Source: an uncultured Elusimicrobiaceae bacterium (GTDB lineage: Bacteria; Elusimicrobiota; Elusimicrobia; Elusimicrobiales; UBA9959). Taken from it: a DNA stretch of 64,000 nucleotides. The stretch's first letter is position 1; the number at the start of each line of letters is the position of its first letter. Both the position numbers and the translations under genes were made by a program. Shown piece by piece: positions 11,895 through 48,689 of the stretch. The DNA lies in NCBI GenBank assembly GCA_964415175.1, contig CAYPYG010000003.1, positions 65,586-129,585 of the forward strand, in the 5' to 3' direction. The notes beneath the pieces are model-generated. The model ran no database searches, was not told the DNA's origin, and saw only the letters and a list, made by a program, of their open reading frames with translations.

Positions 11895-12968
11895 ATGACG
11901 GGAAAGAAAGAGATCTCCAAGCTCAAGATCGCGGTCACCTCGGACTGCTGTCTCTCCTGCACGCACTGTTTCATAGATAAATCGGCCGGGCTGACCGTGA
12001 AGGAGCCCGACGCGCGGCGCGCCGTGGACGCGCTTCTGGGGTCCCCCGGGAACGCCAAGAAACTGGAACTCTACGGCGGGGAAGCCCTGCTGAAACTGCC
12101 GCTGCTGGAGCGTATAACGGACTATGCCCGCGCCGCGGCCGCGCGCCGCCGCAAGAAGCTCTCGGTCTGGCTGGCCTCCAACGGTCTCACCCTCGGCCCC
12201 GGAGAACTCGGGTTCGTCCGGTCCAGGGATATCGTGCTTTCGATAAGCCTCTACGGCTCCGCCGCCTCGCACGACCGGGTCCGCCGCTTTCCCGGCGGCC
12301 GGGGAAGTTTCGAAGCGCTGGAACGGCGGCTGCCGGCGGTGTTCGCCGCGCTCGACCCCATGCGCGTGACGGCGCTGCTCTGCGTTCATCCCTCGCGCGC
12401 GGGCCTGGCCGACAGGGACCTCGCCGGCATCCTGTCCCTCGGTTTCCGGATCGTCAACATAGAGTGCGTGCACGGCGCGCCGTGGGGGACCGCGCGGCTG
12501 GCGGCTTTTTCGCGCGCCCTGGCGCGGGCGCGCTCCTCCTTCCTCGGGACCGTGCGGGCCGGCGGTTTCTATGCCTTCGAGCCCTTCATGGAGAGGGCGT
12601 CGCCGGCGCGTGCGAAGGGACCGGATTCCTGCCCTTTCCTGCGCGACCTGGAGCTTTTCCCCGACGGGCATTACTCGCTTTACCCTTTCGGTTTCGTCGA
12701 TTATCCGCGTTACGCCGCCCAGGTCAGGATCGGGACGCCGGCGGAAGGGTTCCTGGGCCGCTTCAGAGACTGCCGCCCCGGCGGGCCGGACTGTCCCTCG
12801 TGCGTGAGCCGTTACTACCGGGTGCCCGGGCTTTCCGGCGGTTCCGAGGCATATTCCCTGCGCACGGCTTTCCTGGACGCCCTGCTGCGGGAGGTGCTCG
12901 CCTCCAAAGACCCCTCCCTCCGGCGCTATTCCGGCCGGCTCGTTTCCCTGGCCGCCTCGGTCTGGTAA
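11895..12968 (+). CDS. Radical SAM protein (distant relative of the paralog family, Cys-rich tail retained)
   Basis: Start at ATG 11895 (MTGKKEISKLKIAVTSDCCLSCTHC = CxxxCxxC). Contains YGGEALL, SISLYGSAASHDRVRRF and CRPGGPDCPSC. The track ORF from 11304 is out-of-frame overlap with the ThrC-like gene. Confidence 0.75.
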   Translation: MTGKKEISKLKIAVTSDCCLSCTHCFIDKSAGLTVKEPDARRAVDALLGSPGNAKKLELYGGEALLKLPLLERITDYARAAAARRRKKLSVWLASNGLTLGPGELGFVRSRDIVLSISLYGSAASHDRVRRFPGGRGSFEALERRLPAVFAALDPMRVTALLCVHPSRAGLADRDLAGILSLGFRIVNIECVHGAPWGTARLAAFSRALARARSSFLGTVRAGGFYAFEPFMERASPARAKGPDSCPFLRDLELFPDGHYSLYPFGFVDYPRYAAQVRIGTPAEGFLGRFRDCRPGGPDCPSCVSRYYRVPGLSGGSEAYSLRTAFLDALLREVLASKDPSLRRYSGRLVSLAASVW

Positions 12969-26403: not shown

Positions 26404-26405
26404 CG

Positions 26406-30712: not shown

Positions 30713-30723
30713 ATTGGCATAAG

Positions 30724-35845: not shown

Positions 35846-37251
35846 AGCGCCCCGCCGGGCCGGAGCCGTTCCTGGTCGAAATATTCCTGACCGGCCGCTG
35901 CAACATGGACTGTACCTACTGCGCGGCGCGTTACATGATCCATGCGAAGGAGCCCGGCCTGCTGACTTTCGAACAGCTGAAGCGGGCGGCGGAAGTGATA
36001 GCCGCCGACCGCGTGGTGAGGCGGAAGCACGGGGGGAGGGTCAGGATCTCCTTCACCGGCGGCGAGCCGATGCTCGAGTTCGCTCTTATCGAGAAGGCGG
36101 TGCGCCATATGCGGGCGCGGTACCCGGACTGGGAATTCGACGTCTCCACCAACGGCACGCTCCTGACACCGGAGAGGCTCGAGTTCTTCCTGCGCAACGA
36201 CGTGGGGCTCAGCGTCAGCCTGGACGGTTTCGGCCGCGTCAACGATTCCCACCGCCGCTTCGTCTCGGGAAAGGCTTCCGCTTTCGGCGTGGTCGAGCGG
36301 AGCCTGCGCGCCGGCCTGGACGATCCGCGCTACCGCGACCTGTTCCACGTCGCCGCGACGCTGACCTCCCGCACCATCGGGGACCTGCCCGGCGTCGTGA
36401 GTTTCTTCAGGGAACGGACGGGGCTCAGGGAGCTCGAGATAGCGCTGGAGGCCTACGAGGACTGGGGACCGCCGGCGCGCGCCGGGCTGCGCCGCGTCCT
36501 GCGCGGGCTGGGGAGGAGATGCGCGGCGGCCCTGGAGCGCGGCGAAGGGGCCGAGGAGGCTTTCAGGGAATTCATCTTCACGCAGGCGAAGGGGGCCGAG
36601 GGACGGGAACTGACCCAAAAAGCGCTGACGCTCTTTTACGACGGCCGTTTCTACCCGTGCGACTTCGTGGTCAAGCCGCCGCTGGAGGAGGAATACTGCG
36701 TGGGGGACCTGGAGCGGGGACTGGACCACGGCCGCCTGGAAGCCCTGGAGCGGCTGCCTCTTTTCAGGGAGATAGAGAGGAAATGCGAGTTCAAGTCCGG
36801 CCTGCTCTCCCCCGTCGAGCGCTACTACTGGGGGATGGTGCACGGCTATTCGAGGGCCGGACTGGACGCCGTCCTTCTCAATACTTCCGAGGTCAACAGA
36901 ATCTTCCACGAGGAACTGGGACCTTACCTGCGCCTCCAGCGCGCCTACGCCAGGCTGTTCATGTCCCCCGGCTTCGGCGATTTCGTCCACGCCCCTAAAT
37001 TCGCCGGGAGCTCCGCCGCCGGCCTGCTCCGGCTGGCCGTTCCGGCCGGAGCCCCGCCCGCGCGGCTGCGGGCCGCGGCCGACTGGCAGCTCCACTCTCC
37101 CGGCGCCGGCGCGCTCAGGCTGGCCGCGGCGGACGGCCGTCCGGCGCGGGCCGCCGCCGGGGACATCGCTTTCTACGCCATGGTCAAATCGCGCATGCTG
37201 GGGAAGAGGTCGCGCGTGGAGCTGGAAGCGGACGGCGGGGGGCGGGCATGA
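35833..37251 (+). CDS. Radical SAM paralog P8
   Basis: Start at ATG 35833 (MGGVKRPAGPEPFLVEIFLTGRCNMDCTYCAA), a 13-nt overlap with P7. TGGEPMLEF; SLDGFGRVNDSHRRF; GFGDFVHAPKF; VKSRMLGKRSRV. Confidence 0.85.
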   Translation: MGGVKRPAGPEPFLVEIFLTGRCNMDCTYCAARYMIHAKEPGLLTFEQLKRAAEVIAADRVVRRKHGGRVRISFTGGEPMLEFALIEKAVRHMRARYPDWEFDVSTNGTLLTPERLEFFLRNDVGLSVSLDGFGRVNDSHRRFVSGKASAFGVVERSLRAGLDDPRYRDLFHVAATLTSRTIGDLPGVVSFFRERTGLRELEIALEAYEDWGPPARAGLRRVLRGLGRRCAAALERGEGAEEAFREFIFTQAKGAEGRELTQKALTLFYDGRFYPCDFVVKPPLEEEYCVGDLERGLDHGRLEALERLPLFREIERKCEFKSGLLSPVERYYWGMVHGYSRAGLDAVLLNTSEVNRIFHEELGPYLRLQRAYARLFMSPGFGDFVHAPKFAGSSAAGLLRLAVPAGAPPARLRAAADWQLHSPGAGALRLAAADGRPARAAAGDIAFYAMVKSRMLGKRSRVELEADGGGRA

Positions 37252-38648
37252 TAGTCAACCCTCTGCGCGCCGACCACCGCCCGCGGGAGGAGTTCCTGCT
37301 CGAGGTCTTCCTTACCAACCGCTGCAACCTGGACTGCTCGTACTGCTCCTCGCGGCGGATGATAGACGAGCCGGCGCGGCGCGCCCTTTCTTTCGGGCAG
37401 GTGCGGCGCGCGGTGGACGTCTTCGCCGCCTACGGGCGCCGCCGCGGCGCGCGCCAGGAGCGCACCGTCTTTTTCACCGGCGGCGAGCCTTTCCTGGAAT
37501 ACGACGTTCTCCGGCGCTCCGTGGAGTACATCGACTCCCTGCCGGGCGGGTTCCGCGTCAGGATAGCCACCAACGCGACGATGCTGGACCCGGCGAGGGT
37601 GAAGTTCCTGCTGGACCATGACGTCCGGATATTCGTCAGTCTCGACGGCTGCCGGAAAGCGCACGACCGCCACCGGGTCTCCCGCGGCGGCCGCGGCTCC
37701 TTCACGGAGATAGACCGGGCGTTGCGCCGGCTGCCGCGCTCCGTGCGCGGCGGGCCCAATTTCTGCGTTTCCGCCACCTTCACCTCCGAGACCGCGAAGT
37801 GGCTTCCCGAGAGCCTGGATTACTTCCGGGACCTGGGCATAAGAGTGGTCGAGATCTGCCCCGAGGCCTACGAGGTCTGGCGGCCGGCGGACATAGCCCG
37901 CGCGGCCGCGGTGCTGGCCCGCGTGGCGAGGGAGCGCCTCTACCGCCGCTTCGAAGGGGAGGCCGGCGGGCCGCAGTTCGTGTTCTCCAATAGTTCGGCC
38001 CCCGACAACTCGAAATGGGCCGTCGCCGACTACAGGGATACCCTGCTGCACAGCGTCAGTTTCATGTACGACGGCTTTTTCTATCCCTGCGAGGCGGTCT
38101 TCGGCGGCGGGACGGAGGCCGCCTACCGCATCGGCGACGCGGAGCGCGGCATAGACCGGCGGCGGGCGGAGAAAGTGTACGCGGCCGCGCTCGCGCGCAT
38201 ACGCCGCTGCGCCCCCTCGGTCGGCACGCTGCTGACGGCAGGGCGCTATTATTACGCCGTGAACGCCGGGCTCGACCCGGCGGAATATTTCGACAACGCC
38301 CGCCGGGTTAACGAGGCCTTCGACTCGGCGTTGGGAGGCTGCCTGCGCGCCCAGCTGCTGCATGACCGCGTCACGGCGCTGCCCGATTTCGGCGATTTCG
38401 CTCACGCTCCCCGCCTCGCCTCCCGGCGGGAGCTCCCCGCCCTAAGGCTGGAAGCTGCGCCCGGCTCCGACCCGGCCCGCCTGCGGGCCTGCGTCGACCA
38501 TTTCCTGTACTCTCCCGGCGCGCGAAAGGCGCTGGCCATCCGCCGCGCCGCCGGCGCGGAGGAAGTATCCTCGGCCCTGGCGCTGTACGCCCTTTCCAAG
38601 GCGGGCCGCCTGCGCAAAAGACTTTCCGTCAGGACGGAGGCGGCGTGA
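37248..38648 (+). CDS. Radical SAM paralog P9
   Basis: FLLEVFLTNRCNLDCSYCSS; TGGEPFLEY; SLDGCRKAHDRHRVS; DFGDFAHAPRL; FLYSPGARKAL. ATGA overlap at 37248-37251. Confidence 0.85.
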   Translation: MIVNPLRADHRPREEFLLEVFLTNRCNLDCSYCSSRRMIDEPARRALSFGQVRRAVDVFAAYGRRRGARQERTVFFTGGEPFLEYDVLRRSVEYIDSLPGGFRVRIATNATMLDPARVKFLLDHDVRIFVSLDGCRKAHDRHRVSRGGRGSFTEIDRALRRLPRSVRGGPNFCVSATFTSETAKWLPESLDYFRDLGIRVVEICPEAYEVWRPADIARAAAVLARVARERLYRRFEGEAGGPQFVFSNSSAPDNSKWAVADYRDTLLHSVSFMYDGFFYPCEAVFGGGTEAAYRIGDAERGIDRRRAEKVYAAALARIRRCAPSVGTLLTAGRYYYAVNAGLDPAEYFDNARRVNEAFDSALGGCLRAQLLHDRVTALPDFGDFAHAPRLASRRELPALRLEAAPGSDPARLRACVDHFLYSPGARKALAIRRAAGAEEVSSALALYALSKAGRLRKRLSVRTEAA

Positions 38649-40942
38649 AGGATGCCGCCGTCAGACCGCCGGAGCGGGAGGTCGAGGTCCACGGGCCTTC
38701 GCTGACCCCGGCGAAGGCCGCCCCGCTGCTGCGTACGGGCGCCGAGGTCTGGGCCGTTTTCGAAGGCGCGGCCGGCGCGCGCGCTACGGCGGCCGCGCTC
38801 GCCGCCCTTCCCCCGGACCTGCTCCGGCGGGTATGCGTGTCCGGCGTTTTCGGCCCCGCCGACGCCGGCTCGCTGCTGCGCTCCGCCCGGCTCTTCCGCA
38901 AGACGGACATAAAAGAACTGGTCTTCGAACTGGACGCGCGCGCCGCGTGGAGGGGAAAGGGGCTGGCGCGGCTGCGCGCGGAGCTGAAGCGGATAGCCCT
39001 GGACTTCGCCCGCGAACTGCGGTCGGGTTCGTTCCCGTGGCCGCAGCCGAGCCGCCTCTACGGCATCGACCTGGCCGGAGGTTCCTTCGCCCCGCCCGGC
39101 GCAGCCGCCGCGGTAAGGAAGGAGATCGGGCCTTTCGCCGCCATAGAGAGGAAGCTCCGCCGCCTGGCCGCCGGGGACGCGGCCGGGGCCCTGGAATTCT
39201 TCCAGCCCCTCACGGCCCGCGGCTTCCGCGGCCGTATCGGGCGCAAGGCGGAGACTCTCAGGCGGCTGGCCGCGTCCGGCAGGGCCGTGCCGCCGTCCTA
39301 CGTGCTTTCGGCGGGAACGCTGCGGCGCCTGTCGCCGGCGCTCGGCGCGGACCGGCGGGGGCCGTCCCCGCGCGGCGCCGGCCTCCGGTTCCTGGCCGAA
39401 CTGCGCGGGCTTTTCCCGGCGGGCCGCCGCTTCATCGTCAGGAGTTCCTCCGCCGAAGAGGACGGGCCGGGCGCTTCCTTCGCCGGGGTCTTCCGCTCGG
39501 AAGTGGTCGCTTCGCCGGGCGCCGCTCCCGCCGCGATACGGCGCTGCCTGGTCTCCGGGCGGGACGCGGGAGCGGCCGCCTACAGGCGTCTCGCCGGCCG
39601 CGGCCGGCGGCCCGCCGGAGGCATGGCGCTGCTGTTCCAGCCTTTCGTAGAGACCGGGCTCGGGGGCGTCGCCGTCTTCGACGGGCAGGGCCGGGCCGTC
39701 ATGGAACTTTCCCGCGGCGGCAACGACGGCATAACGGGCGGCCGTTCCGCCGACTGGCGTTATACTCTCGACGCGCGCGCCCGCCGCCTGGACTGCCCGC
39801 CGCGCTCCCCGCTGTCCCGTTCCGCGGCCGCGCGGCTGCTCTCGGCGCTGGCCTCCGCGAAGAGCGCTCTGTTCCCGTCGGGCGCCGCCTCGTTCGAATT
39901 CCTGGCCGGGGAAGGAGAACCCCTTTTCCTGCAGGCGCGCCCCCTGCCGCGCGCGCCCGAAGAGCCGCGCGCGGACATGCCGGCCGTCTACGCGCGCATA
40001 GCGGCGGCCATGGCCGGCCTCGGCCTCGGGCCGCGCGGCTGGAGCCTGGCCGAGACGGCGGACGTGGCGGCCTTCAATTTCCTCGGCCTCGCGCGGCCGG
40101 CGGGAGAACGCCTGGAACATTTCCGCGTCAGGATAAGCCGCGCGGCCAGGGAGAAGATCTCCCCGCGCGGCTGGGTCAGCGTCAAGTACGACGACGACGA
40201 CGACACTCTTTTTCCCTCCGGGCTCCCGCCGCTCCGCCGCGCCGCGCTGGAACGCCTGGCCGAAGAGGGGATATTCGTCATTTTCGTGCTGCCGAAAGAA
40301 GGCGAGACGGTCCTGCGGAGGACGCTCTCTTTCCCCGCGCCGGGCGGCCGGCTGCGCGTCCCGTTCTCCTATTCCCCCGAAGGGCTGGAGAAGGAGGAGG
40401 AACGCGACCTGCTCCGGCGCGGCCCGGCGGAGGCGGCCGCCTGGCTGAGGCGCCTGGCCCGCGAACGGGAGATCTGGCTGGGCGTGCGCCGCGTCGTCCG
40501 GGCCGGAAAGACCGGGGCCTACGGCCGGGCGCTGGCCCGCTTCCTCCCGGGGGAACTGGCGCTCATAGCGCGCAAGGAGCGGCTGGCGCGCCGCGCGGCC
40601 GCGCGCGCTCCCGGGGACGGCGCCGCGGTAAAAGGGCTGCCTTTCCGCCCGTCCGACGCGGTAGTCTCCGGCGTGGCCGTGACGGCCGCCCGGGCCGCCG
40701 CCTGGAAAGGCGGACCCTTCGTCTATTTCGGCCACGACCTGGAGCCCTGTTTCCTGCCGCTGATGGGCCGCATAAAGGCGGTCGTCGTCTCGCGGGGGGC
40801 CTTCGGTTCCCACGCGGCGCAGATCTGCTCGGAACTCGGCGTCCCGCTGATACTCGAAACGTCCAACCTGGGCCTGGTCAGGGACGGCGACCGGGTCGCG
40901 CTGGACCTGCGCACCGGGGAAGTGAGGAGGAAGCCGGAATGA
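38645..40942 (+). CDS. PEP-utilising-enzyme-like phosphotransferase (ATP-grasp PPDK_N-type domain + C-terminal swivel-His domain, no TIM-barrel domain)
   Basis: GTG start with GTGA overlap at 38645-38648. The central region has RIGRKAETLRRLAASGRAVPPSYVL and FIVRSSSAEEDGPGASFAGVF (PpsA/PPDK nucleotide-binding domain). The C-terminal end has VVVSRGAFGSHAAQICSELGVPLIL (phospho-His mobile domain). The N-terminal ~190 aa are unassigned. Confidence 0.75.
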   Translation: MKDAAVRPPEREVEVHGPSLTPAKAAPLLRTGAEVWAVFEGAAGARATAAALAALPPDLLRRVCVSGVFGPADAGSLLRSARLFRKTDIKELVFELDARAAWRGKGLARLRAELKRIALDFARELRSGSFPWPQPSRLYGIDLAGGSFAPPGAAAAVRKEIGPFAAIERKLRRLAAGDAAGALEFFQPLTARGFRGRIGRKAETLRRLAASGRAVPPSYVLSAGTLRRLSPALGADRRGPSPRGAGLRFLAELRGLFPAGRRFIVRSSSAEEDGPGASFAGVFRSEVVASPGAAPAAIRRCLVSGRDAGAAAYRRLAGRGRRPAGGMALLFQPFVETGLGGVAVFDGQGRAVMELSRGGNDGITGGRSADWRYTLDARARRLDCPPRSPLSRSAAARLLSALASAKSALFPSGAASFEFLAGEGEPLFLQARPLPRAPEEPRADMPAVYARIAAAMAGLGLGPRGWSLAETADVAAFNFLGLARPAGERLEHFRVRISRAAREKISPRGWVSVKYDDDDDTLFPSGLPPLRRAALERLAEEGIFVIFVLPKEGETVLRRTLSFPAPGGRLRVPFSYSPEGLEKEEERDLLRRGPAEAAAWLRRLAREREIWLGVRRVVRAGKTGAYGRALARFLPGELALIARKERLARRAAARAPGDGAAVKGLPFRPSDAVVSGVAVTAARAAAWKGGPFVYFGHDLEPCFLPLMGRIKAVVVSRGAFGSHAAQICSELGVPLILETSNLGLVRDGDRVALDLRTGEVRRKPE

Positions 40943-42315
40943 AGTCCGTCCTCCCGCCGCCCACGCTGGAACTTTATTTCACCAACCGGTGCAACCTGGA
41001 CTGCGCGTATTGTTCCAGCCGCGCCGTCAAAGCGGGCGGGACCAGGACGATGAGCCTGGAGGAGATAGTCCGCGGAACGGACCTGGCCCTGGACTATGTC
41101 CGCCGGGCCGGCGGCGGCCCGCTTACCGTGGGACTTACCGGCGGAGAGCCGCTCACGGAATTCCCGCTGCTGCGGCGCGCGGTGGAGACGCTGCGCCGCA
41201 GGCGCGGCCTGAACCTGCACGTCTGCACCAACGGGACCCTGCTGGACCGGGAGAAGGCCGGCTTCCTGCTCGACAGCGGCGTGGAACTGGACATAAGTCT
41301 CGACGGGCCGGCGGCGCTGCACGACCGCAACAGGCGGGCGGGGCCGGGCGGGCCGCGCTCCGTCTTCGCCGCGGTACTGCGGAACCTGGAGCGTCTGCCG
41401 CCCTCCTGGACGGGGCGGATGCGCGCCGTCTCCACCTTCGATTCCCGCACCATCGGCGGCGCCGCCGGCGCGCTGGAATTCCTGCGGGACCTGGGTTTCC
41501 GGCAGGCCGGCTTCGGCATCGACATATACGAGAACTGGTCCCGGCGGGACCTCGTACGGCTGGCCGGGACGCTCGCCCTGTTCCGGCGCCGGTATACCGG
41601 CGCCTGGCTCTCGGCGCTGCGGTCCCGGCGGCCCGACCCGCCCCCCTTCCCGTTCGAGGACGGCCTGGTCGGAAGCCTGCGGCCGGAGGACTCCCGCGAG
41701 CTCTCGCTTTCGGTGGACGGCTATTTCTTCCCCTCGGACACGGTCCGCCGCGGTCCCGGCCGGCCGGGCTGGACGGTGGGCGACCTGCGGACGGGTATCG
41801 ACGCCTCCCTGCTGTCGAAAGCCCGGGCCAGGGTCTCGCGCGCCGCGTCCGGTCTCGGTTTCTCCAACTGGATAATACCTCCCGCCGACCGCTACTGGCA
41901 CGCGGTGTTCCGCGGCGCCGACCCCGTCCCTTCGCTGGCCAACGCGGCGGAGGTCTCGGCCGTGTTCGGACGGGAACTGGGCGGCCTGCTGGAGGCCCGG
42001 CGGGCGCTGGACGCGCTGGCGGTCGAGCCCGGTTTCGGGGACCTCGTCCACCGTCCCAGGCACGCCGCCCCGCGCGGCGTGGGCTCTTTCGCCTCCGCCG
42101 CGGGACGGCTGGCGGCGGCCAGGAGGGGAGTGGACTATTTCCTGCATTCCCCGGCGCGCGGCGGCCGGCTGACCCTGGAAGGCGCGGACGGGGAACGCTC
42201 CCGGCGCCTGGCGTTCTACGCGCTGCTGAAGGCGGCGCGGCTGGGGGGCTCGCTGAAGATCGCGCTCCGCCGGCAGGGCCCCGGCGGCCCCCGTTATGGT
42301 AAAATTGGAAGATAA
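40939..42315 (+). CDS. Radical SAM paralog P10
   Basis: TLELYFTNRCNLDCAYCSS; TGGEPLTEF; SLDGPAALHDRNRRA; GFGDLVHRPRH; FLHSPARGGRL; LKAARLGGSLKI. ATGA overlap at 40939-40942. The track ORF 38833-42315 is a composite. Confidence 0.85.
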   Translation: MKSVLPPPTLELYFTNRCNLDCAYCSSRAVKAGGTRTMSLEEIVRGTDLALDYVRRAGGGPLTVGLTGGEPLTEFPLLRRAVETLRRRRGLNLHVCTNGTLLDREKAGFLLDSGVELDISLDGPAALHDRNRRAGPGGPRSVFAAVLRNLERLPPSWTGRMRAVSTFDSRTIGGAAGALEFLRDLGFRQAGFGIDIYENWSRRDLVRLAGTLALFRRRYTGAWLSALRSRRPDPPPFPFEDGLVGSLRPEDSRELSLSVDGYFFPSDTVRRGPGRPGWTVGDLRTGIDASLLSKARARVSRAASGLGFSNWIIPPADRYWHAVFRGADPVPSLANAAEVSAVFGRELGGLLEARRALDALAVEPGFGDLVHRPRHAAPRGVGSFASAAGRLAAARRGVDYFLHSPARGGRLTLEGADGERSRRLAFYALLKAARLGGSLKIALRRQGPGGPRYGKIGR

Positions 42316-42352: not shown

Positions 42353-43135
42353 ATGAAAGGTTTCGATCAGGACGAGATAAGGTTCATCAAGGAACACGGT
42401 ATTTTCCTCGGCTTGCGCGACACGGGCGGCGGGAAGCCTTCGCCCGACCTGGCCGGCTATGACAGGCTCTACGGCATAATCGGGCTCGACCGCCGCAACG
42501 CTTCGAGGGCCGCGGCCCTGGCCGGGACCGCGCTGAAGAACGGGTACACGCGGCTGCGTTTCGAACTCTGCGGCAAGGGCCGCTGGACCGCCAGGGAGCT
42601 CGACGGCCTGCGCGCCGGCCTGGCCGGGCTGGGCCAGCTGCTGCTCAAAAGCGTCATCGCGAAAAAACCTTTCATCCTCCTGAACCTGGAGGACCTGCTG
42701 GACCCCGAAGAGGGCTGCCGCATCTTCTCCGATATGCTGATGGCCGACGCTAAAGGGAACTACGTGCTGGTGCCCCCGCAGTGGCGCTACGACGGCCGCG
42801 GGGTCAAGGTCGGCCACGCCGACACCGGCATAAAGGAGTACCAGGGCTGCGTCCACGACGCCAAGTCGGCCCGCTGCGTCGAATGCGAGAAGAAGAATTT
42901 CGCGCTGCTGGCCAAGATCTACGACGGCAACGCCACCGCCGGTTTCCGCGCCGGCATAGGGAAGATCTTCGAGAGCGTCCGCTACCTGGCCGGCGCCAAG
43001 CCCGCCTTCAAGGCCTACCTGGCCGCCCTCCGGGAGGACAGGGACCTGGAGTCGGGCCTGTTCATAAACGAGGCCGGCAAGAAGGCGGAGAAGACGAAGA
43101 GGGCGAAAACGGCGGCCAGGGCGAAGACGCGTTAA
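42353..43135 (+). CDS. Free-standing Cys4 module protein (cluster-motif-less relative of the paralog C-terminal half)
   Basis: Start at ATG 42353 (MKGFDQDEIRF), preceded by GGAGGCGG. EGCRIF...YVLVPPQWRYDGRGVKVG...GCVHDAKSARCVEC...PAFKAYLAAL is collinear with the C-terminal extension of P6. It has a Lys-rich tail. Confidence 0.7.
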   Translation: MKGFDQDEIRFIKEHGIFLGLRDTGGGKPSPDLAGYDRLYGIIGLDRRNASRAAALAGTALKNGYTRLRFELCGKGRWTARELDGLRAGLAGLGQLLLKSVIAKKPFILLNLEDLLDPEEGCRIFSDMLMADAKGNYVLVPPQWRYDGRGVKVGHADTGIKEYQGCVHDAKSARCVECEKKNFALLAKIYDGNATAGFRAGIGKIFESVRYLAGAKPAFKAYLAALREDRDLESGLFINEAGKKAEKTKRAKTAARAKTR

Positions 43136-43187: not shown

Positions 43188-44546
43188 ATGTCCGTTTTCC
43201 GACCCACGAGGCTGGAGATCTTCCTCACCAACAAGTGCAACCTCAGGTGCACCTACTGCTCCTCCAGGCATCTCCTGGCCGGCGCGGCCAGGACGCTGTC
43301 CGCCCCCGCGCTTAAAAGAGCCGTCTCCGTCTTCGCCGCCTACGGCCCGGGGCCCGGCGGCCCGCGCACCATCTGCTTCACCGGCGGCGAGCCGCTGCTG
43401 GAGTTCCCCCTGCTGAAGGAGGCCGTGCTCCACATCCGCTCTCTGCGCGAGCGCTTCGATATCACCGTCAACACCAACGCCACCCTGCTCGACCGGAGCA
43501 AGGCCGCCTTCCTGGCCCGCAGCGGCGTCTACCTGGCCGTCAGCCTGGACGGGGGGAAGGAAGTCCACGACGCCCACCGCGTCTTCGCGGGAGGGGGGAA
43601 GGCCTCGGTCTACGACGCGCTGCTGCGCAACCTGCGCGCGCTGCCGCCGGATTCCCTGTCCGGCGTGCGGGCCTCCGTGACCGTCACCTCGCGCACGATG
43701 CCGTCGCTGCCGGACACCATAGAGACCCTGCAGGACATGGGTTTCCGTTTCGTCGAACTGGGGCTGGACGCCTACGAGCGCTGGACGCCGGCCGGGCTCC
43801 GCGCCCTGGGGCGGACGCTGGACGCCCTGCGGGGCCGCTACGCCGCCGCGCTGGCCTCGGGCGACCCCGCCAGGATCGCCCGCGTCTTTTCCTTCTCTCT
43901 CGAGAACAAGCGGCAGAAGGCCGGCTTCTACACCCCGCTGGGGGATGTTTCGCTTTCGCCGGAGGGGATCTTCTACCCGTCGGATACGCTGGCCACGGCC
44001 GCCGAGGGCGGCGCGGATTTCGCCGTGGGGGACCTGGAGAAGGGGATAGACGAGTCGAAGCTGCGCGCCGTCTACCGCCGGGCGGCCGCGATCATACCGC
44101 CCGGCGCGCGCGCGGAAGGAGCCTTCTCCCCCGTGGACAGGTGCCTCTACTGCCTCGTCCACGGCCTGGACCCGCGCGCCCTGCTCGCCGACGCCGCGGC
44201 CGCCAACCGCCTTTTCTCGGAGAAGATAGGCGGCCTGCTGGAAGTGCAGCGGGTCTGGCGCGAGCTGGCCAGGGACAGGGAGTTCGGCGACCTCGCCCAC
44301 GCGCCGAGGCAGGCCGCCTCCAAACCCGTGCGGCGGCTGGCCGTCGCGGCCGGAGGACTTTCGCCGGCCGCCCTGCGCGCCGCCGCCGACTTCGCCCTTT
44401 ATTCGCCCTCCCCGTCGGTGCGGCTGCGGCTGGCCGCCGGCCGCGGCGGCGGGCCCGCCCTGGGGACGGCGGCGGTCTACTCCTCGCTCAAGGCCAGGCT
44501 GCTGGGCAAAAAGCTGCGCCTGGCGGCGGAGGCGGACCTCTTATGA
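43188..44546 (+). CDS. Radical SAM paralog P11
   Basis: RLEIFLTNKCNLRCTYCSS; TGGEPLLEF; SLDGGKEVHDAHRVF; EFGDLAHAPRQ; LKARLLGKKLRL. Confidence 0.85.
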   Translation: MSVFRPTRLEIFLTNKCNLRCTYCSSRHLLAGAARTLSAPALKRAVSVFAAYGPGPGGPRTICFTGGEPLLEFPLLKEAVLHIRSLRERFDITVNTNATLLDRSKAAFLARSGVYLAVSLDGGKEVHDAHRVFAGGGKASVYDALLRNLRALPPDSLSGVRASVTVTSRTMPSLPDTIETLQDMGFRFVELGLDAYERWTPAGLRALGRTLDALRGRYAAALASGDPARIARVFSFSLENKRQKAGFYTPLGDVSLSPEGIFYPSDTLATAAEGGADFAVGDLEKGIDESKLRAVYRRAAAIIPPGARAEGAFSPVDRCLYCLVHGLDPRALLADAAAANRLFSEKIGGLLEVQRVWRELARDREFGDLAHAPRQAASKPVRRLAVAAGGLSPAALRAAADFALYSPSPSVRLRLAAGRGGGPALGTAAVYSSLKARLLGKKLRLAAEADLL

Positions 44547-45865
44547 GCGCGGGACTTTTCTCGAGGCGGCTGGACATCTTCGTCACCAACAGGTGCAACC
44601 TGGACTGCGACTACTGTTCCTCCAGGGGGATGCTCGGCCCCTCCGCCGCCCGCTCCCTGTCCGCCGCGGAACTGCGCCGGGCCGTGGACCTTTTCGCGGC
44701 TTGCGGGCCGGGGGGCGGGGAGCCGCGCACCATCGCTTTCAGCGGCGGGGAGCCTTTCCTCGAGTTCGACGCGGTCGCCGCCGCGGCGCGCTATATCCGT
44801 TCCCGCCGGGAGAAGTTCCTCGTCAGCGTGACCACCAACGGCACGCTGCTGACCCGCGACAGGGCCCTGCGCCTGCTGGACGAAGGGGTCTGCCTGGTGC
44901 TGAGCGTGGACGGCGGCCGCGCCGCCACCGACCGCCACCGCCGGTTCCGCTCCGGCGGCGCTTCCGTCTTCGGCGCCGTGAAGAGGAACCTCGGGCGGCT
45001 GCCGGCCAGCGCGCTGAACCGGCTGCACGTGACGCTGACGCTCACCTCCCGCACGATAGCGTCCGTGGCGGAGAGCGCGCGCCTGCTGGAGGAGATGGGC
45101 TTCGCTTCCGTCGAGATAGGCCTGGACGTCTACGAGACCTGGACCCCGGAGAAGCTGGCCCTGCTCGGCCGGGCCCTGGCGTCCTTCCGGGACCGCGCGC
45201 TGCGCTCCGCCGACGCCGGCGTCCTGCGGCGCGGCGGCGGACTGGTCTTCCGCTCCTTCTTCCAGGACTACGACGCCGGCGAGAAAGTGCTGCCTTTCGA
45301 TACGCTCTGCCTTTCCCCCGAAGGCGTCTTCTTCCCCTGCGACGCGCTCTGCGCCGCCTGGCCGCGGCAGGACCGCTACTCGGTCGGCGACCTGCGCCGC
45401 GGAGTGGACCTGCGCCGCCTCCGGCGGATATACGCCGGCGCCCTGTCCTTCATCCGCCGCCGCGGCCGGGCCGACGGCGTGCTCTCGCCCGTCGACAGGT
45501 ACTTCTTCGCCCTGGCCAGGGGGACCGACCCGGCCGCGCTGCTGCGCAACGGGGCCGAGGTGGACCGGATCTTCGACAGGGAACTGGGAGGCCTGGCCGG
45601 GGTGGAGAAATGCGCCGCCTCGGCGCGCTTCGCCCCGGCCGCGCCCGCGCCCTTCCGCTCGGCCCGGGCGGCCCTTCCCGGCGGGCCGGCGGCCTGCGGC
45701 GCCGTCCGCTCGCTTCTCTCCGGCGCCGGCGACAAAACCCTTTCGCTGCGGTTGCCCGGCGGCAGCGGCCGGCCGGCGGCCTCCGGCCCGCTCGCGCTCT
45801 ATTCGCTGCTGGCCGCCCGCGGCCGCCGCGGCAGGTTCGCCCTTTCGCTGGAGGCCGGCGCATGA
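44543..45865 (+). CDS. Radical SAM paralog P12 (C-terminal motifs degenerate)
   Basis: RLDIFVTNRCNLDCDYCSS; SGGEPFLEF; SVDGGRAATDRHRRF. The GFGDF and LYSPG motifs are not recognisable. ATGA overlap at 44543-44546. Confidence 0.8.
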   Translation: MSAGLFSRRLDIFVTNRCNLDCDYCSSRGMLGPSAARSLSAAELRRAVDLFAACGPGGGEPRTIAFSGGEPFLEFDAVAAAARYIRSRREKFLVSVTTNGTLLTRDRALRLLDEGVCLVLSVDGGRAATDRHRRFRSGGASVFGAVKRNLGRLPASALNRLHVTLTLTSRTIASVAESARLLEEMGFASVEIGLDVYETWTPEKLALLGRALASFRDRALRSADAGVLRRGGGLVFRSFFQDYDAGEKVLPFDTLCLSPEGVFFPCDALCAAWPRQDRYSVGDLRRGVDLRRLRRIYAGALSFIRRRGRADGVLSPVDRYFFALARGTDPAALLRNGAEVDRIFDRELGGLAGVEKCAASARFAPAAPAPFRSARAALPGGPAACGAVRSLLSGAGDKTLSLRLPGGSGRPAASGPLALYSLLAARGRRGRFALSLEAGA

Positions 45866-47283
45866 ACCGCTCCTCCGCCCTCCGCGCGCTTCAGCTGCTG
45901 CCGGCCAGCCTTGAGATCTACCTGACCTCCGCCTGCAATATGCGCTGCGGCTATTGCTCCAGTTCCGCCATCGTGAACGGCCCGGCCCGGCGCCTGACGG
46001 CGGGGCAGGTGAAGCGCGGCATAGATATTTTCGCCGCCCTCTGTTCGCCCCGGACCGCGGCGGCCGCCGGCGGGGACCCCAAGTTCCGGGTCGTCGGCCT
46101 GACCGGCGGGGAGCCGCTGCTCGAGTTCGGCGCCGTCGCAGCCGCCGTCGAGCACGTGCGCAAGAACCACAAGCGGCTCTCGGTGACGGTCTCGACCAAC
46201 GGCCTGCTGCTGGACCGGGAGAAGGCGCGGTTCCTGCTGGACCGGGACGTGGACCTCACGGTCAGCCTGGACGGGCCGCGCCGGGCCACGGATTCCCAGC
46301 GGCGCTTCGCGGCCGGCGGGGGCTCCGTATCCGCCGCGGTGCTGCGCCGCCTCGCGCGGCTGCCCGCCTCCTATCTCCGCCGCATGCGCGTGATGGCCAC
46401 CTTCACCCCGGATACCGCGCCGGACATCGCCGGCAGCGTGCGCTTCCTGCGGAGGCTCGGTTTCGCCGCCGTGGAGGCCGACCTCGACATGTACGCCGAC
46501 TGGACCGCCCGCGACCTGGCCCGCCTGCGCGCCGGCCTGGCCCGCCTGCGCGGCCTCTACATGCGGGGTTTCCGCGACGGGGACTGGACCTCCGACTGGG
46601 GGGATATCTTCGGCGGCGCGCTGCAGAACAAAGTGCGCGGCGCCGGCCCCTACGAGGCCTTCCACGAATTCTCCCTCTCCTGCGACGGCTGGTTCTACCC
46701 GGCCGACGTGCCCGCCCTGTTCGGGCCCGGGCCGGGTCCCGGCGCTTTCGCCGTGGGCGGCCTGGAAAAAGGCGTCGACCTCCGGCGGCTTAAAGGATAT
46801 TTCGACGGGGCCGCCGCCTTCCTGGGGCGCCGCTCCGGTACCGGCGAGGCGGTGCCGCCCGCCTGCCGCTATTTCAACGCCCTGGCCAGGGGGCTCGACC
46901 CCGCCGCCGCGATGGCGGGTTTCGGCCGCCTCTGCGCCGCGTTCGACGAAGAGCTCGGCGGCCTGCTGCGCCTGGAGCGCGTCTTCCGCCGGCTGGCCCG
47001 CGCCCGCGATTTCGGGGACTTCTCCCATCGGCCGAGAACCCTGCCCCGCCACCGGGCGGCTTCGCTCGCCGTGCATCCGTCCGCAGGACTCGGCGCGGCG
47101 CGCCGCGCCGCCGACGGGGCGCTCTATGCCCCCGGCCGCCGCAAGGTCCTGCGCTTCGCCGATCCGGGACCGGCCGGGCGCGGCGACGCGCTGGGGCTGG
47201 CCCTCTATTCCGCCCTCAAGGGCGCCTGGCTGGGCGGGAAGCCGCGCGTCGCCCTGGAATCCGGCGGCGGGAGGTCCTCGTGA
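45862..47283 (+). CDS. Radical SAM paralog P13
   Basis: SLEIYLTSACNMRCGYCSS; TGGEPLLEF; SLDGPRRATDSQRRF; DFGDFSHRPRT; ALYAPGRRKVL; LKGAWLGGKPRV. ATGA overlap at 45862-45865. Confidence 0.85.
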   Translation: MNRSSALRALQLLPASLEIYLTSACNMRCGYCSSSAIVNGPARRLTAGQVKRGIDIFAALCSPRTAAAAGGDPKFRVVGLTGGEPLLEFGAVAAAVEHVRKNHKRLSVTVSTNGLLLDREKARFLLDRDVDLTVSLDGPRRATDSQRRFAAGGGSVSAAVLRRLARLPASYLRRMRVMATFTPDTAPDIAGSVRFLRRLGFAAVEADLDMYADWTARDLARLRAGLARLRGLYMRGFRDGDWTSDWGDIFGGALQNKVRGAGPYEAFHEFSLSCDGWFYPADVPALFGPGPGPGAFAVGGLEKGVDLRRLKGYFDGAAAFLGRRSGTGEAVPPACRYFNALARGLDPAAAMAGFGRLCAAFDEELGGLLRLERVFRRLARARDFGDFSHRPRTLPRHRAASLAVHPSAGLGAARRAADGALYAPGRRKVLRFADPGPAGRGDALGLALYSALKGAWLGGKPRVALESGGGRSS

Positions 47284-48689
47284 GCCGCGCTGTCCCTCTC
47301 CCGGCCGCGCGCCGGCTGCGCGCCGTCCCCTCTTCCCTGGACATATACATGACGGACGCCTGCAATATGCGCTGCGGCTACTGCGCCAGCGCCAGGTTCA
47401 TAGAGGGCGGCGGGGCCAGGACGCTGCCGCCGCGGCTCCTGCTGAGGGGAGTGGACGCCTTCGCGGCGCTGGTCGCCCCCCGCCGCGGCGCGGCCGATCC
47501 TGCCGCGGTGAGGGAGATCTCCTTCACCGGCGGCGAGCCGCTGCTCCGCTGGGACCTGCTGAGGGATTCGGTCCGGGCGATAAAGCGCGAATACCCCTGG
47601 CTCAAGCAGACCGTCTTCACCAACGGCACTCTGCTCACGCCGGAAAAGGCGGACACGCTGCTGCGCGCGGGCGTCAGGATAGTGGTGAGCCTCGACGGCG
47701 GCCGCGCCGTCAACGACCGGCACCGCCGGCTGGCCGACGGCCGCCCCGGCTTCGCGGCCGTGGCCGCGAACCTGCGCCGCCTCGGCGCCGCCCGCCGCGC
47801 GGAGCTGCACCTGATGGCCACCTTTACCTCCGCTACCGCCGGGAAACTGGTCGATACCGTGCGGCTGTTCAGGACCTTCGGCTGCCGCGACATACATCTC
47901 GGCCTGGACCTTTACGAGGACTGGTCCCCCGCGGCCCTGGCCCGCCTGCGGGCCGCCCTGGCGGAACTGCGCGGCTACTGCCTGCGCGGCGGCGCCGCCG
48001 TCCGGGGGCCGGGCGGGGACTGGGATTTCAACTTCTATTTCAAGGACCGCGTGTCCGCCTGCCTCGACCTGACGCCGTCGAACTCCTTCACCCTCTCGCC
48101 CGACGGCTTCTTCTATCCCTGCGACGAGCTCTGCATCTCGGCCGCGGACCCGGCGAAGTACGCCGTCGGGTCGGCGGAGAGCGGCCTGGACCTGCGCCGG
48201 CTGGAACGGGTCTACTCCGCCGTGGAGCGGCGCGTGAGGGGGCTGGACCTGGTCAACGGCGTGCTTTCGCCCATAGACAGGTATTTCCGCGCGGTACTGG
48301 ACGGGCGCGACCCGTCCGCCTCCCTGCGGGCCGGCGGGCGGGTGACGCGCGTCTTCCTGGAGGAGCTCGGCGGGCTGGTGGAAGTGGAGCGGCTTTTCAA
48401 ACTGCTGGTGCGCGCGCCCGGTTTCGGCGATCTCATGCACCGGCCCCGCCACGCCCTGCGCGCCGGGGCCCGCCGCGCGCGGCTGTCCGCGCCGGCTTCG
48501 CCCGCCGCGCTGGCGGCTTCGCGGGCCGCCGCGGACCTGCTGCTTTACTCCCCGGGGAAGCGCAAGGAACTGGTCCTGCGGAGCGAAGGGGCTTTCGGCG
48601 AGGCGGCCCGCGGCCTCGCCCTCTACGCGGCGCTCAAGGGCGCGCGGCTCGGCGGGCGGACCCGGGTGGGCCTGGAGGCGGGCCGGTGA
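47280..48689 (+). CDS. Radical SAM paralog P14
   Basis: SLDIYMTDACNMRCGYCAS; TGGEPLLRW; SLDGGRAVNDRHRRL; GFGDLMHRPRH; LLYSPGKRKEL; LKGARLGGRTRV. GTGA overlap at 47280-47283. Confidence 0.85.
   Translation: MSRAVPLPAARRLRAVPSSLDIYMTDACNMRCGYCASARFIEGGGARTLPPRLLLRGVDAFAALVAPRRGAADPAAVREISFTGGEPLLRWDLLRDSVRAIKREYPWLKQTVFTNGTLLTPEKADTLLRAGVRIVVSLDGGRAVNDRHRRLADGRPGFAAVAANLRRLGAARRAELHLMATFTSATAGKLVDTVRLFRTFGCRDIHLGLDLYEDWSPAALARLRAALAELRGYCLRGGAAVRGPGGDWDFNFYFKDRVSACLDLTPSNSFTLSPDGFFYPCDELCISAADPAKYAVGSAESGLDLRRLERVYSAVERRVRGLDLVNGVLSPIDRYFRAVLDGRDPSASLRAGGRVTRVFLEELGGLVEVERLFKLLVRAPGFGDLMHRPRHALRAGARRARLSAPASPAALAASRAAADLLLYSPGKRKELVLRSEGAFGEAARGLALYAALKGARLGGRTRVGLEAGR

What the first reader, a model, noticed from the sequence alone, without database searches (positions are those of the whole stretch)
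42353..43135. A Cys4 module (LVPPQWRYDGRGVKVG) occurs free-standing, fused to rSAM P6, and in partial form on the AKR and possibly the PEP-enzyme
The 260-aa product of 42353-43135 is collinear with the C-terminal ~220 aa of P6 (~33650-34283). Both share the following elements:
- R-L-x-x-E-L-x-G-x3-W...LR-x-G-L/M...LG
- G-C-x-I/V-F
- Y-x-LVPPQWRYDGRGVKVG
- G-C-x9-C-x2-C
- F-x-AYL-x-AL

The AKR extension (~31665-32090) keeps the first and last elements (LRRGLAGLGKTII, KAFREYLDEA). The N-terminus of the PEP-utilising enzyme (VFELDARAAWRGKGLARLRAEL) is weakly similar. The module also parallels the second half of the rSAM paralogs themselves (RELEIALEAYEDW...LRRVL; FYPCDFVVKPP..YRVGDL). It therefore looks like a cluster-motif-less derivative of the family with four conserved Cys, possibly a metal or Fe-S site. 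It may act as a shared docking or substrate-carrier domain that recruits different enzymes.
Basis: partly seen in the sequence, partly recalled or inferred. Interest (0 to 1): 0.7.

Follow-up and report, generated by a model that had tools for sequence, protein, structure and literature searches.

The report
Dead radical-SAM domain keeping four cysteines
The 260-residue protein is the rear two-thirds of a radical-SAM enzyme fold that has lost its catalytic iron-sulfur and SAM-binding motifs but kept a four-cysteine auxiliary site. It occurs free, fused to one radical-SAM paralog and, in shortened form, on an aldo-keto reductase, inside an uncharacterised nitrogenase-like/radical-SAM gene cluster of Elusimicrobia.

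Summary
The product of 42353-43135 matches P6 residues 482-726 (40% identity, E 1e-51). A module profile finds the reductase extension (E 1.7e-10; 3.6e-15 with the tail+module profile). That extension lacks the hairpin/Cys4 part.

The module has no Pfam or NCBIfam match. It is a radical-SAM (rSAM) derivative. It aligns end to end with the C-terminal ~220 residues of compact rSAM enzymes (hhalign 98.5%, E 2e-15). Its four cysteines fall on their four invariant non-catalytic cysteines.

The module is only part of a domain. The missing N-terminal third (beta1-beta3, without CX3CX2C and GGE) is the conserved ~75-residue tail ending the window's 16 rSAM paralogs. An AF2 model of tail+module matches CteB and anSME (Foldseek E 1e-8). 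The module alone does not (E 0.12).

The N-terminus of the PEP-utilising enzyme is a separate half-rSAM fragment, closer to the paralog core (E 3e-13) than to the module.

The module is most likely a non-catalytic partner domain of the rSAM paralogs that probably carries an Fe-S cluster. This rests on fusions and conserved adjacency. Metal binding and docking mode are untested. It is a new variant of a known kind, of moderate interest.

The parts
42353..43135 (+). Free-standing module gene (260 aa). It comprises alpha3'-beta4'-beta5'-beta6' of a pseudo-rSAM barrel, then the hairpin/Cys4 subdomain, then two C-terminal helices and a basic tail.
42716..42886 (+). Hairpin/Cys4 subdomain of the free module. 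C122 is at 42716-42718. LVPPQWRYDGRGVKVG is at 42767-42814. C166 is at 42848-42850, C175 at 42875-42877 and C178 at 42884-42886.
   Evidence: Invariant columns. The cysteines align to the four invariant non-triad cysteines of compact rSAMs and to SPASM positions of CteB. This is the AF2 low-confidence stretch 127-160.
32100..33299 (+). P6 catalytic rSAM domain (aa 1-400) with CX3CX2C. Its amino-acid composition is atypical.
33300..33533 (+). P6 tail (aa 401-478). It is beta1'-alpha1'-beta2'-alpha2'-beta3' of the pseudo-rSAM domain. The cluster loop is deleted and the GGE motif is lost.
33534..34283 (+). P6 fused copy of the module (aa 479-727), with Cys4.
31716..32048 (+). Short-form module on the C-terminus of the aldo-keto reductase (gene 30795-32090, aa ~308-418). 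The hairpin/Cys4 part, about 75 aa, is deleted.
38672..39034 (+). N-terminal half-rSAM fragment (aa ~10-130) of the PEP-utilising enzyme (gene 38645-40942). It is derived from the paralog core (beta3-alpha6), not from the module lineage.
40939..42315 (+). rSAM paralog g40, directly upstream of the free module (37-nt gap). It ends with the tail (about 42091-42270). g40 plus the module is collinear with P6.
   Evidence: The same gene order occurs in L004-L007.
11895..12968 (+). Compact rSAM (357 aa) of the lineage from which tail+module derives. It has an intact CX3CX2C, GGE and the same four extra cysteines.
14149..15666 (+). rSAM paralog with tail plus one further pseudo-domain element (GRWRYLTEHGVRIGIK, alpha3'/beta4').
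24946..27905 (-). Two rSAM paralogs with tails: 26406-27905, and 24946 to about 26400 (start uncertain).
28039..30692 (+). rSAM paralog 28039-29427 and pseudo-paralog g29 (29424-30692). g29 has no CX3CX2C. Both carry tails.
34280..38648 (+). Three rSAM paralogs with tails: 34280-35845, 35833-37251 and 37248-38648.
43188..50077 (+). Five rSAM paralogs with tails: 43188-44546, 44543-45865 (degenerate tail), 45862-47283, 47280-48689 and 48686-50077.
51810..53351 (+). rSAM paralog with tail.

Best explanation
What it is (shown).
- The module is the C-terminal two-thirds of a catalytically dead radical-SAM domain.
- That domain descends from a compact, twitch-like rSAM enzyme that became fused behind a CteB/PapB-like rSAM.
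- The dead domain lost the CX3CX2C loop and the GGE SAM-binding motif.
- It kept the (beta/alpha)6 architecture and, in most full-length copies, four cysteines. These sit at positions that are invariant in its active relatives and correspond to SPASM/twitch auxiliary-cluster ligands.
- Its first third (beta1'-beta3') survives as the C-terminal tail of the 16 rSAM paralogs.
- The remainder is present in cis in P6 and as a separate gene right after paralog g40.

How it most likely works (inferred).
- It is a non-catalytic partner domain or subunit of the rSAM paralogs.
- It probably carries one [4Fe-4S] cluster on Cys122/166/175/178. The paralogs themselves have no complete auxiliary-cluster site.
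- It would therefore supply an electron-relay or substrate-holding site next to the catalytic barrel.
- Docking could be by completing the paralog's tail into a whole pseudo-barrel, or by pairing with the cis copy in P6-type enzymes.
- The shortened copy on the reductase would tether that enzyme to the same assembly. The separate half-barrel on the PEP-utilising enzyme might do the same; there is no direct evidence for that.

My estimates: rSAM-derived pseudo-domain 0.9; physical partner of the rSAM paralogs 0.7; Cys4 binds Fe-S 0.55; docking by tail completion 0.25-0.3.
For: Identity.
- A1 (module) versus compact rSAMs A4: 98.5%, E 2.2e-15, 222 columns, all four cysteines aligned.
- The module HMM hits P0025-27 at whole-library E 3e-4 to 7e-4; per sequence this is about 1e-13.
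- Tail+module versus A4: 98.5%, E 1.5e-15. Versus the paralog core: 96.3%, E 2e-9. Controls score at most 22.
- The tail+module HMM hits the compact rSAM at 11895-12968 at E 2.3e-10, aligning AVDALLGSPGNAKKLELYGGEALL with AVDFFLYSPGDRKRLVMDATDNG.
- A tail-only HMM hits the same rSAM at iE 6.7e-9.
- The AF2 tail+module model has pTM 0.72 and six beta/alpha units. Foldseek top hits are CteB (E 1.1e-8, 270 columns), then anSME, ChlB and TigE; all 16 hits at E<=1e-3 are rSAM/SPASM enzymes, and SkfB follows at E 5.4e-3. The module alone reaches only E 0.12.
- There is no CX3CX2C or GGE motif and no PF04055 hit.

Cysteine mapping.
- In compact rSAMs aligned to CteB, the first Cys corresponds to the first SPASM Cys (CX9-15G).
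- The CX2C corresponds to the first CX2C of CX2CX5CX3C.
- Cys4 is retained in members as distant as P0014, P0016 and P0021.

Partnership.
- Fusions to three different paralog subtypes exist (P6/P0012, P0021, P0017/20/22-24).
- The order paralog -> module -> paralog is conserved in L004-L007.
- In a 38%-GC MAG the free module's stop overlaps the start of a paralog that has its own module.
- The paralogs lack conserved non-triad cysteines.
- Purifying selection acts on the module.
Against: - No metal or interaction data exist. AF2 is least confident exactly in the hairpin/Cys4 region.
- P6 orthologues (P0012; L001) have lost all four cysteines yet keep LVPPQWRYDGRG. Short forms lack the whole subdomain, so the cluster cannot be essential to every copy.
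- The second twitch ligand (GX4C) is absent, so a structural Zn site is possible.

Against tail completion as the general docking mode:
- Free modules in L001 and L011 start at beta5' and lack alpha3'/beta4'.
- The PEP fragment starts at beta3, so the pieces do not share one clean breakpoint.
- In L011 the only nearby paralog already has a full cis module.
- These loci also hold obvious fragments, such as a 199-aa 'GFGDF+tail' protein and pseudo-paralogs. Some pieces may be decay products.
Confidence: 0.55

Rival explanations
1. The module is a pure adapter or scaffold, with no redox role. It would be a shared docking or substrate-carrier domain that brings the reductase, the PEP-utilising enzyme and the rSAM paralogs together. 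The four cysteines would hold a structural metal such as Zn, or nothing.
For: - The same fold piece is attached to three unrelated enzyme types.
- Cys-less and subdomain-less versions persist.
- The hairpin motif is conserved even where the cysteines are gone.
Against: - The Cys4 pattern is conserved more deeply than the hairpin motif (P0014, P0016, P0021).
- It maps onto the invariant auxiliary-site cysteines of active relatives.
- The PEP fragment is of separate origin, so it is not one shared adapter.
Confidence: 0.2
2. The module is a stand-alone small Fe-S or metal protein, for example an electron donor or acceptor for the cluster's enzymes, that does not dock through the paralog tails. 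The tail would be only a structural C-terminal extension of the paralogs.
For: - Free modules exist without an upstream paralog on the same strand (L001).
- Free modules occur beside a paralog that already has a cis module.
- N-terminally shorter free forms exist.
Against: - Tail and module form one predicted domain in cis.
- The free gene begins exactly where the paralogs end.
- Fusions occur repeatedly.
- A half barrel is unlikely to be a self-sufficient fold (inference).
Confidence: 0.15
3. The module is evolutionary debris. The module, the reductase extension and the PEP N-terminus would be non-functional leftovers of recombination among tandem rSAM paralogs.
For: - The loci contain pseudo-paralogs and fragments (g29; the 318-aa and 199-aa proteins in L001).
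- The window's reductase extension is a shortened, more diverged copy of the full module seen in P0011.
Against: - The module has an intact ORF, coding GC3 pattern and Shine-Dalgarno sequence.
- dN/dS is 0.13-0.38, and about 50 columns are invariant.
- Synteny is conserved across genomes of 38-70% GC.
- The PEP N-terminus is as conserved as the rest of that enzyme: 71% versus 74-78% identity.
Confidence: 0.05
4. The module is a peptide-recognition element, like the RRE/PqqD domain of RiPP maturases, that binds a precursor peptide for the paralogs.
For: The paralogs' nearest named relatives are RiPP maturases: PapB, SCIFF/CteB and CcpM.
Against: - No PqqD/RRE or any other Pfam match appears even at E<=10.
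- The predicted fold is beta/alpha, not winged helix.
- No intergenic space or small repeated ORF for a precursor was seen in the cluster.
Confidence: 0.05

Closest known systems
SPASM/twitch radical-SAM enzymes with solved structures: CteB (5WGG/5WHY), anSMEcpe (4K36-4K39), ChlB, TigE, SkfB. BtrN is the one-cluster twitch case (from my own knowledge).
   Same: The tail+module model superposes on the rSAM core of CteB (Foldseek E 1.1e-8, TM 0.52, 270 columns). The first Cys, the conserved Gly and the CX2C occupy SPASM/twitch ligand positions.
   Different: There is no CX3CX2C, no GGE and no PF04055 hit. The GX4C Cys and the CX5CX3C...C part are absent. A different Cys (C166) lies 8 residues before the CX2C. 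The polypeptide is split, with one third on the paralogs and two thirds free.
Compact ~350-370-residue rSAM lineage (P0025-P0027; window gene 11895-12968). It is unnamed; its nearest NCBIfam model is the PapB family, below cutoff.
   Same: The C-terminal ~220 residues align with the module (98.5%, E 2.2e-15). Both share the same four-Cys pattern and the xF(R/K)xYL helix. The N-terminal AxDxxxxSPGxxKxL segment matches the tail.
   Different: These are intact enzymes with CX3CX2C and YGGE. The module/tail has neither.
Pseudo-rSAM proteins, such as the NCBIfam TIGR04347 'pseudo-SAM/SPASM protein' family
   Same: Both are rSAM/SPASM homologues that lack the SAM-cluster motif. This is a precedent for catalytically dead members. 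The family appears among weak hits of the window's paralogs.
   Different: The module does not match that model (no families). It is a partial domain, and it occurs both fused and free.
Group VI nitrogenase-like (NFL) gene clusters of groundwater Elusimicrobia (Meheust et al. 2020, doi 10.1101/765248; Chem Rev 2026, PMC13474568)
   Same: The window is from an Elusimicrobiales MAG. It has three NifH-NifD-like fusions with NifK-like partners, many rSAM genes and a HemN-like gene. This matches the published description.
   Different: The main text of the 2020 preprint and the sections of the 2026 review that I read do not mention the module, the paralog tail, or the reductase and PEP-enzyme fusions. 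The product and function of these clusters were still unknown in July 2026. Phylogenetic placement of these NifH/D in Group VI was not tested here.
Half-barrel fragments of (beta/alpha)8 enzymes that reassemble, e.g. HisF-N/HisF-C (from my own knowledge; analogy only)
   Same: This is the proposed docking mode: two fragments of one beta/alpha barrel, on different polypeptides, complete each other.
   Different: No evidence of reassembly exists here. The breakpoints of the different fragments are not identical.

Membership tests
Radical SAM superfamily (PF04055) | CX3CX2C motif ligating the SAM-binding [4Fe-4S] cluster | tested here: not met
   The motif is absent from the module and from the tail that precedes it in P6. 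The loop is deleted relative to the compact rSAM (LKIAVTSDCCLSCTHC... versus LRLSVSDSS-).
Radical SAM superfamily (PF04055) | GGE (SAM amino-group binding) motif after beta2 | tested here: not met
   The position aligned to YGGE of compact rSAMs reads DATD / RAxD in tails.
Radical SAM superfamily (PF04055) | Partial (beta/alpha)6 TIM-barrel core | tested here: met
   The AF2 model of P6 401-727 has six beta/alpha units and pTM 0.72. All 16 Foldseek hits at E<=1e-3 are rSAM/SPASM enzymes, the best being CteB at E 1.1e-8. This is met only for tail+module; the module alone is a part-barrel.
Radical SAM superfamily (PF04055) | Match to the Pfam/NCBIfam models | tested here: not met
   No family was found for the module or tail+module, even at E<=10.
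SPASM / twitch auxiliary-cluster domain | First Cys and Gly of CX9-15GX4C | tested here: met
   C122-x12-G135 aligns, through the compact rSAM family, to the corresponding Cys and Gly of CteB.
SPASM / twitch auxiliary-cluster domain | Second Cys (GX4C) at the end of the beta-hairpin | tested here: not met
   No Cys lies four or five residues after G135 (V140/P141, inside the LVPP motif). It is also absent in compact rSAMs.
SPASM / twitch auxiliary-cluster domain | CX2C after the hairpin (twitch), plus CX5CX3C...C for a second cluster (SPASM) | tested here: inconclusive
   The CX2C is present (C175, C178) and aligned to CteB CDSC. The CX5CX3C and seventh Cys are absent, so it is not SPASM. It is twitch-like, with C166 as a possible substitute ligand.
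SPASM / twitch auxiliary-cluster domain | Actually binds a [4Fe-4S] cluster | not testable with these tools
   This needs metal analysis and spectroscopy. AF2 confidence is low in this region.
Compact twitch-like rSAM lineage (P0025-27, window 11895-12968) | Homology over the C-terminal half, including the four invariant non-triad cysteines | tested here: met
   hhalign 98.5%, E 2.2e-15, 222 columns. HMM whole-library E 3e-4 to 7e-4.
Compact twitch-like rSAM lineage (P0025-27, window 11895-12968) | Intact catalytic N-terminal half | tested here: not met
   The module starts after beta3. The tail equivalent is degenerate.
Group VI NFL-associated gene cluster (Elusimicrobia) | NifH/NifD/NifK-like genes next to many rSAM genes in Elusimicrobia | tested here: met
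   Source names 'Elusimicrobiales bacterium' are.
Group VI NFL-associated gene cluster (Elusimicrobia) | Phylogenetic placement of NifH/D within Group VI | not tested
   No tree was built.
RiPP recognition element (PqqD-like) | Winged-helix fold / PqqD model match | tested here: not met
   There is no Pfam hit at E<=10. The predicted structure is beta/alpha.

The most novel reading that the evidence does not exclude
The pseudo-rSAM barrel acts as a split docking device. Each of the ~16 rSAM paralogs carries the first third (the tail). The remaining part sits on a free Fe-S module and, in shortened form, on the reductase. A related half-barrel of separate origin sits on the PEP-utilising enzyme. 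Completing the barrel in trans would plug different accessory activities, or a shared auxiliary cluster or substrate holder, into successive radical enzymes. The whole would be an assembly line making the unknown product of the nitrogenase-like cluster.
Probability: 0.2. Interest if true: 0.75.

Novelty: new variant of a known kind. Interest (0 to 1): 0.55.

Why it matters
- These nitrogenase-like/rSAM clusters of Elusimicrobia were highlighted in 2020 as likely makers of an unknown cofactor. They were still uncharacterised in a 2026 review.
- This analysis shows that a previously unannotated protein, the C-terminal tails of the paralogs, and extensions on two accessory enzymes are all pieces of radical-SAM folds without catalytic motifs.
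- This yields concrete, testable hypotheses. One is which subunits assemble (module with g40/P6). Another is where an auxiliary Fe-S cluster may reside, given that the paralogs have none. A third is which constructs to co-express for biochemistry.
- It also documents a rare family: 18 clusters among 1.84 billion representatives.
- More generally, it is an example of an enzyme fold recycled as a non-catalytic partner and split across genes.

Tried and rejected
- **PDB sequence search.** The module profile found only chance hits at E>1.
- **Fold search.** Foldseek with the module-only model gave nothing at E<=1e-3. It became significant only with the tail added.
- **Wrong frame.** An initial family scan used the wrong-frame ORF 40989-42302, and likewise 29459-31150, 44593- and 49273-. 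GC3 by frame corrected these to g40, g29, g44, g48 and a shorter HemN-like gene.
- **Tail distribution.** A word-indexed database search with the tail alignment was uninformative: 2 hits, with the candidate cap reached. How widespread tail-bearing paralogs are without modules remains unknown.
- **PEP N-terminus.** The homologue search gave a single sequence, so its profile is thin.
- **ORF 3-791.** It looked like another half-rSAM but is an ordinary rSAM cut by the window edge.
- **Tandem duplication.** The idea that tail+module is a duplicate of the paralog itself was replaced by descent from the compact rSAM lineage, which scores higher.
- **Recent fission.** A simple recent fission of a P6-like gene into g40 plus module is unlikely. 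g40 belongs to a different paralog subgroup from P6 by alignment.
- **RRE/peptide-binding domain.** Rejected.
Full report
**Context**

The window is about 68% GC. The closest database proteins come from Elusimicrobiales MAGs.

Gene calling by GC at third codon positions and Pfam/NCBIfam scans show one large, mostly plus-strand cluster. It contains:
- three NifH-NifD-like fusions, each followed by a NifK-like gene (877-4669, 17215-20959, 21023-24945);
- a HemN-like rSAM (50095-51885);
- a compact rSAM (11895-12968);
- an aldo-keto reductase (30795-32090);
- a PEP-utilising/ATP-grasp enzyme (38645-40942);
- sixteen paralogs of one ~460-residue rSAM family, one of which (g29, 29424-30692) lacks the CX3CX2C motif.

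This matches the published description of the 'Group VI' nitrogenase-like clusters of groundwater Elusimicrobia. Their product was still unknown in a July 2026 review. I did not build a tree to confirm Group VI placement.

**Checking the observation**

The gene.
- The product of 42353-43135 is a real gene. It has a coding GC3 pattern and a GGAGG sequence 6 nt before the ATG.
- Homologues start at the same Met.
- dN/dS against orthologues is 0.13-0.38.

The match to P6.
- The product matches P6 residues 482-726 at 40% identity over 249 residues, E 1e-51.
- In an alignment of ten homologues plus P6, about 50 columns are invariant. These include C122, C166, C175 and C178 and much of LVPPQWRYDGRGVKVG.
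- The spacing is C-x8-C-x2-C.

The reductase extension.
- It is found by the module HMM at E 1.7e-10, in two pieces that skip the hairpin/Cys4 part.
- The tail+module HMM finds it at iE 3.6e-15.
- A related genome has the same reductase with a complete, Cys4-bearing module (P0011). The window's version carries a ~75-residue internal deletion.

The PEP-utilising enzyme.
- Its N-terminus is only marginally similar to the module: E 0.57 and 0.024 by HMM, and hhalign 45.6%.
- It is clearly a fragment of the rSAM paralog core (beta3 to alpha6): core HMM E 3.1e-13, hhalign 98.3% with E 1.4e-14, and E 2e-11 in an orthologue.

**What the module is**

It has no Pfam or NCBIfam match, even at E<=10, and no PDB sequence match. 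A full HMM scan of 1.84 billion representative proteins finds only 18 relatives.

Those relatives are informative. They comprise:
- free modules;
- P6-type fusions;
- a reductase fusion;
- fusions of a short, Cys-less form to other paralog subtypes;
- a free 'tail + short module' protein (P0015);
- at E 3e-4 to 7e-4, three intact compact rSAM enzymes (P0025-27), whose C-terminal halves align with the module.

Profile-profile comparison confirms the last point. Module versus compact rSAMs gives 98.5%, E 2.2e-15 over 222 columns. The module's four cysteines fall on the four invariant non-triad cysteines of those enzymes.

When the compact family is aligned to CteB (E 7e-36), the cysteines map as follows:
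- the first of these cysteines and the following Gly correspond to the start of the SPASM motif (CX9-15G);
- the CX2C corresponds to the first CX2C of CX2CX5CX3C.

The hairpin Cys (GX4C) and the second-cluster cysteines are absent. The site is therefore twitch-like, with C166 as a possible fourth ligand. That last point is inference.

**The module is only part of a domain**

The paralogs end in a conserved ~75-residue tail (LRL...LRAAxDxFLYSPGxRKxLxL...LYSxxKAxxLGKKLRVxLE). g44's copy is degenerate and undetected by the independent tail+module HMM, and g29's is marginal there; a profile built from the window's own tails matches both. The free module begins exactly where the tail stops: g40 ends ...LKIALRRQGPGGPRYGKIGR*, and the module starts MKGFDQDEIRF. 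The same junction in P6 reads ...LRLMLETDAKGFDDDNWRF.

Sequence evidence for tail plus module as one unit:
- A profile of tail+module from ten proteins aligns collinearly with the paralog core from alpha1 to alpha6 (96.3%, E 2e-9, 177 columns).
- It aligns better still with the compact rSAMs (98.5%, E 1.5e-15).
- Its HMM hits the window's compact rSAM at E 2.3e-10. There AVDALLGSPGNAKKLELYGGEALL pairs with AVDFFLYSPGDRKRLVMDATDNG, and SNGLTL pairs with ETDAKG.
- A tail-only HMM hits the same enzyme at iE 6.7e-9.
- Reversed and column-shuffled controls never exceed a score of 22.4, against observed scores of 39 to 113. The tail-alone comparison with the paralog core is marginal, at 24.0 versus 19.7.

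Structural evidence:
- An AF2 model of P6 401-727 (pLDDT 70.9, pTM 0.72) shows six beta/alpha units.
- It matches CteB at E 1.1e-8 (TM 0.52, 270 columns), followed by anSME, ChlB and TigE (all at E<=1e-3) and SkfB at E 5.4e-3.
- The module-only model (pLDDT 70.6) reaches only E 0.12.

Together, tail plus module is a degenerate rSAM domain without the cluster loop and without GGE. It descends from the compact lineage and sits behind the catalytic domain. Most paralogs retain only its first third.

**How it probably works**

Shown:
- The module cannot perform SAM chemistry.
- It is under purifying selection.
- It is fused to several paralog subtypes.
- The gene order paralog -> module -> paralog is conserved in four other loci.
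- In a 38%-GC MAG, a free module is translationally coupled to a paralog that has its own cis module.
- Outside the catalytic triad, no cysteine column is conserved in more than 8 of the 16 paralogs. g40 has only one extra Cys.

Inferred:
- The module is a non-catalytic partner of the rSAM paralogs. This uses fusion/fission logic, an established inference principle.
- It probably carries one Fe-S cluster that the paralogs lack.
- It docks either by completing the tail or by pairing with the cis copy in P6-type enzymes.

Caveats:
- P6 orthologues in L001/P0012 have lost all four cysteines while a Cys4-bearing free module sits in the same locus.
- Short forms lack the subdomain entirely.
- Free modules in L001 and L011 start at beta5', and the PEP fragment starts at beta3. 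The fragments therefore do not share one breakpoint.
- These loci contain obvious decay products.
- AF2 is least confident in the most conserved stretch, the hairpin/Cys4 region. This is expected for a cofactor- or partner-dependent region but proves nothing.

**Comparison and novelty**

The module is not a member of the radical SAM family as an enzyme: the CX3CX2C motif, the GGE motif and the Pfam model were all tested and not met. It is not a SPASM domain. It is a twitch-like remnant of a compact rSAM.

Pseudo-rSAM proteins are known as a kind, for example the NCBIfam TIGR04347 name seen. A partial pseudo-domain split between a universal paralog tail and a free or fused remainder is not mentioned in the papers I could search and read.

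I rate it a new variant of a known kind, with interest 0.55. The most novel reading still open is a split-barrel docking system linking accessory enzymes to successive radical enzymes, at a probability of about 0.2.

Noticed in passing
window 877-4669, 17215-20959, 21023-24945: There are three separate sets of a NifH-NifD-like fusion protein followed by a NifK-like protein in one 64-kb window. This fits the multi-copy 'lineage IV' situation described for Group VI nitrogenase-like systems.
   Followed up: partly
window 14149-53351 (16 genes): Sixteen paralogs of one ~460-residue rSAM family are present. Their twitch-like region has lost its cysteines: no non-triad Cys column is conserved in more than 8 of 16. 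One member (g29, 29424-30692) has also lost the CX3CX2C motif.
   Followed up: partly
window 38672-39034: The PEP-utilising/ATP-grasp enzyme carries an N-terminal half-rSAM fragment derived from the paralog core (E 3e-13). It is as conserved between genomes as the rest of the enzyme (71% versus 74-78% identity).
   Followed up: yes
window 32100-33299: The catalytic domain of P6 is a compositional outlier. Gly+Ala+Arg+Pro is 0.21 and Phe+Tyr+Met+Ile+Asn+Lys is 0.34, against 0.32-0.50 and 0.12-0.23 in the other paralogs. This explains the local GC dip and AT skew. The cause is unknown, but it suggests a different selective regime.
   Followed up: no
window 15540-15666 and 15567-17210: Paralog 14149-15666 continues past the tail into the next pseudo-domain element (GRWRYLTEHGVRIGIK) and then stops. 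The next gene is a TPR protein with unusually low GC3 (0.61-0.73) for this genome. It may be an insertion that truncated a former fusion.
   Followed up: no
L001 5463-6062 (-) and 8362-9318 (+): A related locus encodes a free 199-residue protein made of only the 'GFGDF + tail' end of a paralog. It also encodes a 318-residue pseudo-paralog without the Cys triad or twitch region. Fragmentary rSAM pieces are common in these clusters.
   Followed up: partly
L001 6268-6900 and 9440-11569: Within one locus, the free module keeps all four cysteines while the module fused to the P6 orthologue has lost all four but keeps LVPPQWRYDGRG.
   Followed up: yes
L011 3054-5797 (38% GC MAG, GCA_964534135.1): A distant, AT-rich organism has a minimal version: a free module overlapping the start of a single paralog with a full cis module. 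Next to it are a HemN-like double rSAM, B12-rSAMs, a DegT aminotransferase, a glycosyltransferase and a PMT_2/FGE-sulfatase protein. No nitrogenase-like genes occur in the 15.8 kb seen.
   Followed up: partly
window 7530-11865: Upstream genes encode an OTCase-like protein (minus strand), a poly-gamma-glutamate hydrolase-like protein, an amino-acid-kinase-like protein and a PLP-dependent (PALP) enzyme. They may supply or tailor an amino-acid-derived building block for the cluster.
   Followed up: no
window 50095-51885: The HemN-like rSAM has a ~200-residue C-terminal extension ending in a Cys-rich stretch (CADCALQLEC). It has no family match and no similarity to the module.
   Followed up: no
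window 3-791: This is an rSAM gene cut by the left edge of the window. It has a C-terminal CSRCVYDKVC motif. It produced a spurious 'half-rSAM' hit.
   Followed up: yes
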